DNA of 64,000 nucleotides. Source: Octopus vulgaris. Its lineage: Eukaryota. The stretch lies in assembly GCA_951406725.2 (NCBI GenBank), contig OX597824.1, positions 79,484,001-79,548,000 on the forward strand. Direction: 5' to 3'. Positions 19,661 through 54,403 of this stretch are shown here, in pieces; the stretch's first letter is position 1; each line of letters begins with the position of its first letter. Under the pieces are notes generated by a model that made no database searches, was not told the DNA's origin, and saw only the letters and a program-made list of their open reading frames with translations. The translations under genes and the position numbers were made by a program.

Positions 19661-20220
19661 CAGTAGAATGGTAAAATGAAACCATAAAGCATATTTAGAA
19701 TCACCCTTCTCTGTTCTAAGCAAAAAATCTCAAAGACTGCATCAACTTTGGCTTTCATAGCATTAGTAGCAGTAGCAGTGGGGAAAAAAATCAACATAAT
19801 ATATACCAGTCATGTACTGGGGTGGATCTAATCAACTATACCCCTCCTCTACAGTCTTTGACCTTGGGTGAGCATAAGATATCCAGATCTTTCATGTTTG
19901 GCCCATACTTTTCAATTCCTTTAATTTTGTTCCACTTCATTTCAAATTTAGTGTGTTGATGTAGTTTTGTATGCTAATTATGAAAATGAAATTAATTTTT
20001 ACCATAAATGAATAATTAAGATGCCAGCTTCCAAATACTGTTTTCTGATTGGGCAAAGATAATCATACTTTAACCTTTTAGCCTTCAGATTACTTTGTCA
20101 AAAGGAGTGCTTGTTTATTCACATTTAAAAAAAATTAATCATGTATTATCCTGTAGCTTTGTAGATTTTCATGATGCGATTGCTTATTTTGAGAAGGACA
20201 TTGTAAGATAGGTGTGAGAG

Positions 20221-20340
20221 GCTTACAGCCACATCACGTTGAAAGCACCGGTTCTCGTCTGATCACCGAAGTTAAGCAACGTCGAGCCTAGTCAGTACTT
20301 AGATGGGTGACCGCTTGGGAAACCTAGGTGCAGTAAGCAT
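20221..20340 (+). rRNA. Dispersed full-length 5S rRNA copy, probably retroposed
   Basis: GCTTACAGCCACATCACGTTGAAAGCACCGGTTCTCGTCTGATCACCGAAGTTAAGCAAC...AGATGGGTGACCGCTTGGGAAACCTAGGTGCAGTAAGCAT matches eukaryotic 5S with A and C boxes. Not in a tandem array. Confidence 0.93.
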
Positions 20341-20356
20341 AGCTCATTGTTTTATA

Positions 20357-20521
20357 GGCGCAGGAGTGGCTGTGTGGTAAGTGTCTTGCTAACCAGCCAC
20401 ATGGTTCCGGGTTCAGTCCCACTGCATGGCATCTTGGGCAAGTGTCTTCTGCTATAGCCCCGGGCCGACCAATGCCTTGTGAGTGGATTTGGTAGACGGA
20501 AACTGAAAGGAGCCTGTCATA

Positions 20522-20554
<33 letters not shown>

Positions 20555-20786
20555 GCATGTGTGTGTTTGTGTGTGTGTGTTTGTACCCCTAGCATTGCTT
20601 GACAACCGATGCTGGTGTGTTTACGTCCCCGTACCACTTAGCGGTTCGGCAAAAGAGACCGATAAAATAAGTACTGGGCTTACAAAGAATAAGTCCTGGG
20701 GTTGATTTGCGCGACTAAAGGCGGTGCTCCAGCATGGCCGCAGTCAAATGACTGAAACAAGTAAAAGAGTAAAAGAGTAAAAGAGA
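20357..20786 (+). mobile_element. SINE family A, directly 3' of 5S
   Basis: Full-length copy. Confidence 0.9.
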
Positions 20787-20909
20787 GAGGCTGTATCCAG
20801 CTGGTTTGAACATAAAACAGGTAGATTATTTAGGCCAGGTATGGCTAGTTTGAATGCTTAAAGGGTTACACTCTTGTAATATTTTTCTAAAAATTTTTCA
20901 GAAACAAGT

Positions 20910-45018: not shown

Positions 45019-45520
45019 AGCTATTGGGAAAAATTCAAGAAATTAAGACTCTATTCCTTAGAGCGCAGGCGAGAAAGATATGCCATAATATACATCTGAA
45101 AGATCCTGGAAACAACTTGTCCCAAACTTTGGCATCGAGAGTTACACAAATACTAGAACTGGGTGCCACTGCATAGTGCCAAAGACTCCAAATTGGCCAT
45201 CAAGATGTAGGACAAGATACTGCAATAGCCTGGACTTCAGAGGTCCACAGCTCTTCAATATCCTCCCGAAGGACCTGAGAGACCTGCATGGGGTGGATGT
45301 AGGTGTCTTCAAAATAAAGCTTGGACCTCTTCCTGTCAAGTGTACCATATGAACCAACCTCACGGCAGGAGGTGCAGATGAGGGCAGCTGCATCAAATTC
45401 TCTCATGCACCAAATGTCAATTCCTAAAGAGCATTCGAGAAGTAAAATTATGTAGTGACACCAAATGGCAGTGCCCCAGTATGGCCACAGCTCGTGAGCT
45501 GAAACTAGATAAAAAAAATG
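45019..45520 (+). mobile_element. CR1-group LINE 3' end (degenerate ORF2 C-terminus plus 3' tail)
   Basis: SYWEKFKKLRLYSLERRRERYAIIYI*KILE...FRGPQLFNILPKDLRDL...FKIKL, with a stop and frameshifts. Tail AATGGCAGTGCCCCAGTATGGCCACAGCTCGTGAGCTGAAACTAGA. Confidence 0.85.
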
Positions 45521-51144: not shown

Positions 51145-51856
51145 AAAAATTTTTTTCCCATGAGAGTTCCGGACCCCAGTAATGAACTCATTTGCATACA
51201 GCCAATCAGAGCTCACCTTGACCATGTCAAGTTAACAAACAGACTCTACCAAGTAAACTCAAAATAAAGAACAGTGTTGTTAGCCGACCAACTGCCAAGT
51301 TATACCAGATTTTAGAAAGGGACAAGTAATTAGATAGATTTGAACCTATACCTATTATTGGCTTTTGTTAGGGCCCCATATGGTAAAGATGTGGATGGGA
51401 AAAACATGGTAGAGGGTGATGTGCTAGCAACCCACTCCCCTTAACCCTTTAGTGTTTAAACTGGCCATATCTGGCCCAGATATTCTACATGTTTTATATT
51501 CAAACTGGCAATATCTAGCCTCTCACACCTACCCGACAATGTTATTCTAAATATAAACAATCACATCATTGAAACCTCAAAGCTATAAGATAATGCATGA
51601 TTAATTCAAAACAATTTGAGTGGAAAAGTATTACATTTAACAGAGTAATCTGAACACTAAAGGGTTAAAACAAGAACAAGAACACTATAATTATCAAAAG
51701 AGAAAAGAAGTATGGTCATTCCTTACCCAAATGACCTTATCTTATCGCCCATCTCTTGTTATGCACTCATAAATTAGTTTGATAGTTGAACTCTGATTGG
51801 CTGTATGCAAGTGAATTCATAACTGGGATCCGGAACTCTTGTAGGAAAAAAATTTT
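51145..51856. mobile_element. MITE with ~75-bp TIRs
   Basis: GAGTTCCGGACCCCAGTAATGAACTCATTTGCATACAGCCAATCAGAG versus CTCTGATTGGCTGTATGCAAGTGAATTCATAACTGGGATCCGGAACTC. Confidence 0.75.
51441..51668. mobile_element. piggyBac-type MITE nested in another MITE
   Basis: TTAA-CCCTTTAGTGTT...AACACTAAAGGG-TTAA. Confidence 0.85.
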
Positions 51857-52492: not shown

Positions 52493-52773
52493 GGTCAGAA
52501 ACGTATGATATATCAATGTGTGTGTGTGTGTGTGCGCATGCACATGTGTTATAGACGATTAAATGAACCTCAGTACATGACTGCTATTTATATTATCGGC
52601 CTCTGAAAATTTTGAAAAAATATCAAAATGTTTTTCATATTTTTCTAAGCAAACTGAAAGTGAAAAATTGCTGGCTAGCCAGCTTTGTATGGATTTAACC
52701 ATGTAGGTGTGTAGATTATTGATTGATTCTAGTTTCAGCTCACGAGCTGTGGCCATGCTGGGGCACCGCCATT

Positions 52774-52779
52774 AAAAAA
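52774..52779 (-). terminator. Pol III terminator (T6) downstream of 5S
   Basis: TTTTTT 4 nt after the 5S 3' end. Confidence 0.65.
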
Positions 52780-52783
52780 TGTA

Positions 52784-52903
52784 ATGCTTACAGCACCTAG
52801 GTTTCCCAAGCGGTCACCCATCTAAGTACTATCTAGGCTCGATGTTGCTTAACTTCGGTGATCGGACAAGAACCGGTGCTTTCAACGTGATATGGCCGTA
52901 AGC
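52784..52903 (-). rRNA. Dispersed full-length 5S rRNA copy with T6 terminator, followed by a LINE 3' tail
   Basis: Minus strand GCTTACGGCCATATCACGTTGAAAGCACCGG...CCTAGGTGCTGTAAGCAT, then TACATTTTTT. Confidence 0.93.
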
Positions 52904-54403
52904 CATATTAATTATGTGAATTAATTAGTAAAAATTTTTTTAAATTAAGCTAGACGGATTACCTCCTACTCACTCTACATAACCAGAATAACCCTTTTGC
53001 TGTGGAAAACCAGATATATCCACTCAGAATTTTATTACCCTTAACTGCAGAAAGCAGTTTGATATACCAATCTATCTTTTGTTGAGAAATGTCATGTTTG
53101 ACGCTATTTTTCATTAGATCTGACAAGTTTATTGAGCTTATGTGACTTCTAGAAAAAATACCAATTCTACTTTTTGGCAGTTATTTCACATTATTACTGG
53201 AATAACCATGGAATTTTATTTTGCAGTTAAAGGAATATAAAACCTATTCAATGTTTGATCAATTCTAAAATTTAAAATCTAAGCATACTAAAACTCTGTA
53301 ACATATTACCAAGAGAAATCAGAAACTAATATCTTCAAAATTCCCTTGAAACTGAGACTCAAAGAATACCTCAGTTTGGTGAACACTACTGAAATAGTAT
53401 TGAATTAAAATCACCATCTGCATATCATACTAAATGTATATATATTTATATATATATTGGATTGGATTGGTTTGTTTATCTTCAGTCCATTGCAGAACAA
53501 AGGCCTCGGCATGTTCACTTCGCCAACCACAGTCTGATGTGGAGGCTATGAATTTGAGCTTGAGATCGTATTGGTTTGATGAGCTAACTCTGCCACAATT
53601 ATATACTATTTATTTATTATTTTGTACTTTATTTAGTTCTAGATAAATGTTTTATCCTATATTTAATTTTTTTCTATATGGTATGATTTAATTATATCAT
53701 TGTTGAATTGCTACATGGTGGTTCTTCTCTAATTTATATGCATACATACACACACACACATATATATATATATATTTTTTTCCGACCAGGTTATCAGATG
53801 TTGTTACACATCGCTGGTCACAATGTGCTTCGCATTGTTTTAGCCTTCAAGTGACACCACCCCGCTGGCTAAGCGAGCAGGCCAACAGAAGAAAGAGTGA
53901 GAGAAATTGGCAAAAGAGTACAACACACAGGAGGTATTGAAAAGTTCCTGACTTTGGGTGAAAGAAAATACAGGAGTATCAGTTAATTATGATTTCCTTC
54001 AACATATTCCCGTCTTGGATTCACACACTTACTGCAGGGGTCCTTCAGTTTTTCTAAGCCCTATAAAAGAACTCGGAAAGTTGGGCCTCCAACCAGGCCT
54101 TTTGCAATACCCTTAAAACCTAGAACTTTCCAGCACCCCATATATATGCATACACACACACACACGGCAGGTTTCTTTCAGTTTTTGCTTAACAAATCCA
54201 CCCACAAAGCTTTGATTGGCCTGGTGCTATAGTAGAAGGCACTTTCCCAAAGAGCTACACAGTAGGATTGAACCTGAAATCATGAGGTTAGGAGCAAACT
54301 TCTTAACCACACTGTCATAACAATGTGGTTGTGAACCAAACAAACAATCATCTTAACTACACAGCTATGCTTGCACCTTTCGAGTATATATAATATATAT
54401 ACG

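What the first reader, a model, noticed from the sequence alone, without database searches (positions are those of the whole stretch)
20213..20792. 5S rRNA plus SINE A apparently inserted as one unit into a piggyBac MITE
Seen: the host MITE (intact at 51441-51668) reads GTGTGAGAGGCT at this point. Here GAGAGGCT occurs both at the 5S 5' junction (gtgtgagag|gcttac) and after the SINE tail (gagagaggctgtatcc). So 5S, a 16-nt linker and a full family A SINE are bracketed by one apparent TSD. Inference: a second, independent 5S chimera ending in the same tail type as the 52.8-kb copy. Two within 33 kb suggests that 5S capture is recurrent in this genome.
Basis: partly seen in the sequence, partly recalled or inferred. 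Interest (0 to 1): 0.72.

Follow-up and report, generated by a model that had tools for sequence, protein, structure and literature searches.

The report
5S precursor RNA fused to SINE
A whole copy of an unprocessed 5S ribosomal RNA is joined end to end to a complete short retrotransposon (SINE) inside an older DNA transposon; it was likely pasted in one step when a reverse transcriptase jumped between the two RNAs, a known kind of accident, but here most scattered 5S copies sampled are such fusions and none sampled has clearly spread as a new element.

Summary
Confirmed, with corrections. A 5S copy (20221-20339), a 14-nt precursor trailer ending TTTT and a full SINE A that starts at 20354 interrupt a TTAA-type MITE. 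The duplication is 4-8 bp, because both junctions overlap the target. The '16-nt linker' is the trailer of clustered 5S genes plus the SINE's first two bases. The 52.8-kb copy has a related but different, LINE-derived tail. Genome-wide, 87 of 100 position-ordered 5S copies have a retroelement within 30 nt downstream on the same strand (random positions 6-10%; opposite strand 0 of 100). All 87 junctions differ, and U6 behaves alike. Joints lie mostly at SINE 5' ends or at the base of the LINE tail hairpin. Best reading: a one-event chimeric retrocopy (about 0.87), likely by end-to-end template jump (0.62) rather than prior RNA ligation (0.25). It is not a SINE3 family. The class is known (U6/L1; platypus U6-L2 and U6-Mon-1). 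The scale, the sense full-length precursor 5S and the ladder of trailer lengths were not found in my 7 paper searches. The empty-site test was inconclusive. The scan has already noted such chimeras in this and other genomes.

The parts
20070..20220 (+). Host MITE, left part, with TTAA at 20070-20073 and a decayed CCCTTT-type end
   Evidence: 76% to the intact copy 51441-51669(-)
20216..20223 (+). GAGAGGCT, left copy of the duplicated target; GCT is shared with the 5S 5' end
   Evidence: single site in 30 MITE paralogues
20221..20339 (+). Full-length 5S rRNA copy; differs from its nearest full-length paralogues only at nt 7 and 12, so the internal promoter region matches them
   Evidence: Rfam 106.3 bits
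20340..20353 (+). 14-nt 3' trailer of a 5S precursor, ending in TTTT (Pol III stop)
   Evidence: Same trailer type follows clustered gene-like 5S copies on C5 (L080, L081, L008); their other flanks are absent from dispersed copies
20354..20518 (+). SINE A 5' part from its likely first base (AT-AGGCG); tRNA-type A/B-box-like motifs read by eye; ARAGORN calls no tRNA
   Evidence: 15 other copies in the window at 76-96%; 5' end
20519..20576 (+). Internal (TA)n/(TG)n microsatellite of SINE A
   Evidence: sequence
20577..20719 (+). SINE A 3' body
   Evidence: 82-93% to other full-length window copies
20720..20754 (+). Predicted double hairpin of the tail; first stem kept and second stem varied among tail types; likely the LINE protein's recognition site
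   Evidence: fold z -3.5; two stems predicted in all 7 tails folded, the second drawn differently in one
20755..20785 (+). Tail end GAAACA plus three AGTAAAAG units; the last GAG overlaps the target
20785..20792 (+). GAGAGGCT, right copy of the duplicated target
20786..20869 (+). Host MITE, right part, ending AAAGGG plus TTAC (decayed TTAA)
   Evidence: 79% to the intact copy
51441..51669 (-). Intact MITE used as empty-site reference
   Evidence: 3494 first-look candidates in the genome
52785..52903 (-). Second, independent 5S chimera: 5S part (93% to the first), preceded by ATATG
52717..52784 (-). Second chimera: 11-nt trailer of another type plus a minimal LINE tail (double hairpin, AATC repeats)
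45020..45510 (+). Broken 3' fragment of the LINE whose tail ends the 52.8-kb chimera
   Evidence: relatives carry weak RVT_1 matches below Pfam's cut-off

Best explanation
The insert is a full 5S precursor copy joined in sense to a full SINE A inside a 4-8 bp duplication, likely made in one retrotransposition event by an end-to-end template jump. Shown: order and orientation of the parts; the trailer matches that of clustered 5S genes and stops at the T run; gene flanks are missing; the target is duplicated with short overlaps at both ends; the same architecture recurs genome-wide with unique junctions. Inferred steps: (1) a LINE protein binds the double hairpin at the SINE RNA 3' end and nicks the MITE; (2) the tail's GAG pairs with the target and primes reverse transcription; (3) the enzyme copies to the SINE RNA's first base and jumps onto the U-rich 3' end of an untrimmed 5S precursor; (4) it copies to 5S nucleotide 1; (5) the cDNA end joins the upstream target through GCT. 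The product is likely dead as a mobile unit, since the T4 stop lies between 5S and SINE.
For: Enrichment 78 of 91 (9 library donors removed) vs 61 of 1000, Fisher p 3e-66; opposite strand 0 of 100. 75 of 87 partners begin at a SINE 5' end (36) or at the tail hairpin base (39), that is at likely RNA ends. All 20 LINE-T1 partners start 1-4 nt before the hairpin, against 17 of 27 stand-alone tails (3 small-RNA chimeras removed from 30), p 0.0025. Trailers of one type run 5-17 nt, as a trimming ladder would; C5 gene flanks hit only C5 cluster loci. 10 of 33 junctions of that type carry extra letters (mutation not excluded). RtcB ligation needs a cyclic phosphate and a 5'-OH, and failed with a 5'-triphosphate (PMC6789731, passages); a Pol III SINE start likely carries a triphosphate (general knowledge). 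5S precursors have U-rich 3' extensions trimmed by an exonuclease (PMC6315592, passages). ATATG, the predicted snap-back product of the 5S cDNA end, precedes 13 of 48 full-length dispersed copies and 0 of 7 gene-like ones.
Against: This junction is clean, as are 23 of 33 of its type, which ligation explains equally well. Many unrelated partners capture 5S (four SINE heads, ATG-tail elements, a hammerhead-like partner), which suits an enzyme-independent RNA join. The chemistry of the RNA ends was not measured. Duplications are not general: 8 bp or more and non-simple in only 5 of 29 (shuffled mean 0.8; some tail ends miscalled). No autonomous LINE with the exact SINE A tail was found among 42 such tails, and the LINE clade was not established.
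Confidence: 0.62

Rival explanations
1. One event, but the 5S precursor and the SINE RNA were ligated as RNA first (as RtcB does for U6/L1), then copied by the LINE protein.
For: Clean junction here and in 23 of 33 of this trailer type. Partners from unrelated elements. U6 shows the same partners. One 5S copy (L074) is joined to a hammerhead-like sequence read by eye (no Rfam match).
Against: RtcB needs 2',3'-cyclic phosphate and 5'-OH (PMC6789731); trimmed 5S precursors and Pol III starts are not expected to have them (general knowledge). Extra letters at 10 of 33 junctions. A cut RNA end is also where a reverse transcriptase would run off and jump, so such junctions do not decide.
Confidence: 0.25
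2. A member of a composite 5S+SINE family (SINE3-like dimer, or read-through from a 5S gene with a SINE in its trailer) that retrotransposes as a unit.
For: The 5S internal promoter region matches near paralogues. L003 has nearly the same trailer, junction and SINE subfamily. Some linkers differ by one base only. 5S added to tRNA-SINEs founded real families (cited in PMC4494074 and PMC4758252, passages).
Against: All 11 exact 5S-SINE A junctions in the genome differ; 47 of 48 5S-hairpin linkers differ, and the identical pair has different end repeats; 87 of 87 differ in the sample. L212 shares the rare trailer variant but carries another SINE subfamily, and this copy's private SINE changes are unshared among 12 aligned. 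A T4 stop precedes the SINE.
Confidence: 0.05
3. Two separate insertions: a 5S retrocopy first, then a SINE into its T-rich trailer, or the reverse.
For: SINE A is very common (16 heads in 64 kb). The outer duplication is short and partly ambiguous. The orthologue test gave no answer.
Against: No duplication at the inner junction; no opposite-strand partners (0 of 100); of 94 dispersed copies only L032, L036 and L070 lack a recognisable partner, so free 5S copies to insert into are rare; several unrelated elements would all have to target the same 20 nt.
Confidence: 0.05

Closest known systems
U6-L2 and U6-Mon-1 chimeras of platypus; U6-AnolisSINE2 of lizard (Doucet et al. 2015, PMC4476161; passages read)
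   Same: Pol III RNA fused in sense 5' of a stringent-type LINE tail or its SINE; short duplications (1-9 bp in 72.5% of 40 chimeras); small RNAs appear only as chimeras where LINEs are stringent.
   Different: Passenger here is 5S with its precursor trailer, often full length; hundreds of likely cases; at least four SINE heads and several tails serve as partners.
Human small-RNA/LINE-1 chimeras, incl. 5S/L1 (Law and Burns, PMC11838501; passages read) and RtcB-made U6/L1 (Moldovan et al., PMC6789731; passages read)
   Same: One insertion made from two RNAs, one duplication around both.
   Different: Human 5S parts are often antisense and cut at nt 46 or 90, with 7-15 bp duplications and L1 sites. 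Here the 5S is in sense, 3'-extended, and joined at SINE 5' ends or a hairpin base.
SINE3 families and 5S-capped tRNA-SINEs (SINE3/AmnSINE1, Ped-1, CoeSINE5, HaSE3; as cited in PMC3747384, PMC5786205, PMC4494074; passages read)
   Same: 5S head plus LINE-derived tail; a 5S added in front of a tRNA-type head.
   Different: Those are multicopy units with one shared structure; here each junction is unique, so these look like the raw material, not a family.
R2/PRINT 5' junction classes 'extra template' and 'snap-back' (PMC11371274; passages read)
   Same: A non-coding RNA added at the template's 5' end; short fold-back synthesis at the cDNA 3' end.
   Different: Engineered R2 in human cells, almost always U6; that paper leaves jump versus ligation open.

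Membership tests
Small-RNA/retroelement chimeric retrocopy | Small RNA copy directly 5' of a LINE/SINE 3' part, same strand | tested here: met
Small-RNA/retroelement chimeric retrocopy | One target duplication around both parts | tested here: met
   4-8 bp against MITE paralogues; short, with overlaps at both ends
Small-RNA/retroelement chimeric retrocopy | RNA origin: starts at +1, ends at the terminator, no gene flanks | tested here: met
   (C5 gene flanks hit only C5 cluster loci)
Small-RNA/retroelement chimeric retrocopy | Junctions differ between copies; partner far more common alone | tested here: met
   87 of 87, 11 of 11, 47 of 48 distinct; 16 of 1851 exact LINE tails have an exact 5S end upstream
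Small-RNA/retroelement chimeric retrocopy | Both parts absent together at the orthologous site | tested here: inconclusive
   No listed contig bridged a junction; listings were cut and dominated by paralogues
SINE3 (5S-headed SINE family) | Many copies with one shared head-tail junction | tested here: not met
SINE3 (5S-headed SINE family) | No Pol III stop between head and tail | tested here: not met
   TTTT at 20350-20353; 57 of 87 other chimeras lack a T4 run
SINE3 (5S-headed SINE family) | Transcribed as a unit from the 5S promoter | not tested
   No RNA run was laid; those offered were uncertain or held small shares
RtcB-ligated chimera (U6/L1 type) | 2',3'-cyclic phosphate donor, 5'-OH acceptor, chimeric RNA independent of retrotransposition | not testable with these tools
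   criteria from PMC6789731
piggyBac-type MITE (host) | TTAA flanks and CCCTTT-type inverted ends, multicopy, non-coding | tested here: met
   29 of 30 with TTAA at the left end, 29 of 30 at the right; decayed in the host copy
piggyBac-type MITE (host) | Shares ends with an autonomous piggyBac transposase element | not tested
   no search made
CR1/L2-group stringent LINE (presumed mobiliser) | RT phylogeny places the partner LINE in the group | not tested
   Only weak RVT_1 hits below cut-off and unnamed atlas hits; the group label is a recalled motif likeness

The most novel reading that the evidence does not exclude
In this genome, LINE reverse transcriptases routinely finish on a free ~55-nt tail RNA or on a SINE's first base and then take up Pol III precursors end to end. 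That left hundreds of independent 5S-headed proto-SINEs that record 5S trimming intermediates and the turnover of 5S source genes. Two thirds lack an internal stop, yet none amplified, which makes the genome a large natural test of why SINE3 birth is rare (for example, a 5S promoter that needs upstream sequence).
Probability: 0.4. Interest if true: 0.55.

Novelty: new variant of a known kind. Interest (0 to 1): 0.38.

Why it matters
The locus itself is one dead insertion among many. As a class it matters in three ways. It shows the step thought to create new SINEs (adding a Pol III head to a LINE tail or to another SINE) happening many times in one invertebrate genome. It means that most dispersed '5S genes' and many U6 copies in such a genome are chimeric retrocopies, not genes. 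And the junctions keep a fossil record of precursor 3' ends, of RNA 5' ends and of fold-back at the cDNA end, which allows template jumping and RNA ligation to be told apart outside mammalian L1.

Tried and rejected
Empty orthologous site: two read-laying runs (35, 40; 6 different runs). Runs X2 and X5 hold contigs about 99% like the left flank, but no listed contig bridged either junction; the one joint skipping 20222-20801 has other letters between and high depth, so it is a MITE paralogue. The raw-read run laid only 21 reads. No verdict. Genome-wide TSD test: weak excess only; some tail ends were miscalled. First classification gave false hits through microsatellites (L036, L090) and was redone with masking. 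LINE clade: Pfam below cut-off and atlas hits unnamed. LINE with the exact SINE A tail: none among 42 tails. Host gene context: 0 Pfam hits for 124 of 249 stop-to-stop frames; short exons would be missed. The repeat finder was swamped by microsatellites. Rfam named no hammerhead for the L074 partner and nothing for the heads of L131, L140 and L150. Tail slippage as the source of the duplication was rejected (1 of 52). Upstream ATATG as native gene flank is not supported by the 7 gene-like copies seen, but unseen source genes remain possible.

Full report
Observation. Rfam finds two full 5S copies in the window, 20221-20339 (+, 106.3 bits) and 52785-52903 (-, 108.9 bits). The flanks of the first, 20069-20223 and 20785-20868, align to adjoining parts of the intact MITE at 51441-51669 (76% and 79%). 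GAGAGGCT stands at 20216-20223 and 20785-20792. The MITE family is large (3494 first-look candidates). Its 30 best matches, the window's own copy included, carry the site once (22 of 30 exactly) and have TTAA at the left end in 29 of 30 and at the right end in 29 of 30. The host copy is an older or different subfamily (best 78% among fetched loci), so the empty site is inferred from paralogues.

The duplication is 4-8 bp, not simply 8. GCT is also 5S nt 1-3, and the SINE tail ends in GAG. The core AGAG is real: it follows the last tail unit in 1 of 52 SINE A tails, this one. The linker splits into a 14-nt trailer ending TTTT and AT. AT precedes the SINE head in 11 of 19 stand-alone copies outside TA runs. 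The same trailer type follows clustered, gene-like 5S copies on contig C5 (L008, L080, L081). Their upstream and further downstream flanks hit only those cluster loci among all loci held. The insert thus has the extent of a primary Pol III transcript; such precursors carry a U-rich extension trimmed by an exonuclease (PMC6315592, passages).

The SINE ends in a predicted double hairpin (z -3.5). Seven tails folded keep the first stem and vary the second. The 52.8-kb copy is 5S, an 11-nt trailer of another type, and about 55 nt of a sister tail that belongs to a LINE; a broken 3' fragment of that LINE lies at 45020-45510. Relatives give weak RVT_1 matches below Pfam's cut-off. I recall the C-terminal motif as CR1/L2-like; this was not tested. 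The genome (G000, 2.8 Gb, 227 contigs) is probably an octopus, which rests on its size, on recalled likeness of the SINEs and on earlier AI notes, not on a test.

Genome-wide test. An exact 5S 3' 15-mer occurs 471 times (reversed control 2) and an exact 23-mer 195 times (control 0). I fetched all of the first 100 of the 195, listed by position (with 10). With a masked library, 87 of 100 have a retroelement starting within 30 nt on the same strand; 78 of 91 without the 9 loci that supplied library entries. Controls: 7 of 100 on the upstream side, 61 of 1000 random places in the loci, 99 of 1000 in the window, and 0 of 100 on the opposite strand. Partners: tail hairpin only 39; 5' end of SINE A 24, B 6, C 4, D 2; ATG-tail element 8; internal SINE A 2; other 2. 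Of the 13 misses, 6 are clustered gene-like copies and 4 show a short or decayed partner by eye (L033, L047, L055, L090); 3 have none recognised. This rate holds for copies with an intact 3' end; 3'-truncated copies were not sampled. U6 does the same: of the first 30 of 229 exact matches, 7 are a tandem gene array, 22 have these partners (6 of them one duplicated locus) and 1 is followed by another U6 piece. One LINE tail is headed by a tRNA with trailer (L128).

Not a family. All 87 junctions differ. The 11 exact 5S-SINE A junctions in the genome all differ. Of 48 exact 5S-hairpin junctions 47 differ (counted by eye); the identical pair has different end repeats. Some differ by one base only, so a few siblings cannot be excluded. 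Trailer types cross freely with partner types. L212 shares this copy's rare trailer variant but has another SINE subfamily; L003 is close in both, yet lacks this copy's private changes and has a shorter T run. Only 16 of 1851 exact LINE tails have an exact 5S end upstream. This meets the test in PMC4494074 (passages) for independent chimeras: the partner is far more common alone. 57 of 87 chimeras have no T4 run in the linker and could in principle be read through, yet no amplified junction was seen.

Mechanism. Joints fall at likely RNA 5' ends: 75 of 87 at a SINE start or the hairpin base. All 20 LINE-T1 partners begin 1-4 nt before the hairpin, against 17 of 27 stand-alone tails (3 small-RNA chimeras removed from 30; p 0.0025). 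Trailers of one type form a ladder of 5-17 nt; 23 of 33 junctions are clean and 10 have extra letters (5 further copies had no partner assigned there). ATATG precedes 13 of 48 dispersed full-length copies and 0 of 7 gene-like ones (background 0.3% per base). It is what fold-back of the cDNA's 3' GC onto nt 8-9 would add (my inference; snap-back junctions are described for R2 in PMC11371274, passages). This copy lacks it and joins through GCT instead. I favour an end-to-end jump (0.62), because RtcB needs a cyclic phosphate and a 5'-OH and failed with a triphosphate (PMC6789731, passages). Ligation stays open (0.25): this junction is clean, unrelated elements all capture 5S, and end chemistry is unknown. 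Duplications are not general in the class (8 bp or more, non-simple, 5 of 29 vs 0.8 shuffled). No LINE with the exact SINE A tail turned up among 42 tails. The orthologue test was inconclusive.

Comparison. The nearest case is platypus U6-L2 and U6-Mon-1: 40 chimeras, stringent LINE, 1-9 bp duplications (PMC4476161, passages). Human 5S/L1 chimeras are often antisense and truncated (PMC11838501, passages). A 5S added before a tRNA head founded real families (cited in PMC4758252 and PMC4494074, passages; also PMC3747384 and PMC5786205, passages). Seven paper searches (listings and abstract starts) showed no report of 5S chimeras in cephalopods. The library lacks most subscription papers and Repbase entries, and I read no supplements. 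Buzdin, Nishihara and Ohshima-Okada papers were seen only as citations.

Verdict. A real, likely one-event chimeric retrocopy of a known class. It varies from described cases in passenger (sense, precursor 5S), range of partners and scale. Earlier scan notes reached similar readings on other DNA; they are not independent support. Interest 0.38.

Noticed in passing
L004, L015, L016, L029, L104, L108 and window 52904-52908 (-): ATATG directly before 5S nt 1 in 13 of 48 dispersed full-length copies, across trailer types; equals the reverse complement of 5S nt 10-14, as cDNA snap-back would give.
   Followed up: partly
L121-L150: 20 of 30 position-ordered LINE tails carry 8 nt or less of LINE before the hairpin: tail-only insertions of about 55 nt are the commonest product of this LINE (1851 exact tails).
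   Followed up: partly
L074 around 800-1250; L036 around the 5S copy: 5S copy joined to a hammerhead-like sequence (read by eye) with an inverted copy of the same sequence upstream, a Penelope-like layout; L036 has only the inverted part.
   Followed up: partly
L206 1366-1580: tRNA piece, U6 and then a second U6 5' piece in a row, suggesting serial jumps.
   Followed up: partly
L008, L080, L081 (C5:16.41-16.50 Mb); L068, L069 (C4:35.25 Mb): Clusters of gene-like 5S copies in both orientations with two 5S variants and different trailers; no long identical tandem array was seen among the 100 listed places.
   Followed up: partly
L195-L201 (C1:139.42-139.43 Mb): Tandem array of U6 genes, about 1.0-1.4 kb unit, 7 copies listed.
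   Followed up: no
L189-L194 (C1:132.42-132.53 Mb): One U6-tail chimera copied six times with its flanks, about 17-27 kb apart: a tandem segmental duplication.
   Followed up: no
5S nt 112 in the trailer class of this copy: This class has A at nt 112, a mismatch in helix I, where others have T or C; it may come from a variant 5S gene.
   Followed up: no
L061 and L142: Two copies of a SINE C body ending in the SINE A tail, 97% alike: a hybrid SINE subfamily.
   Followed up: no
L016, L053, L066, L118: Short extra copies of the 5S 5' end just upstream of the main copy, suggesting repeated tries at the 5' junction.
   Followed up: no
L027: [quoted passage not shown]
   Followed up: no
L128, L140, L131, L150: LINE tails headed by a tRNA with intron-like insert and trailer (L128), a matching 3' piece (L140), and two unidentified small-RNA-like heads.
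   Followed up: partly
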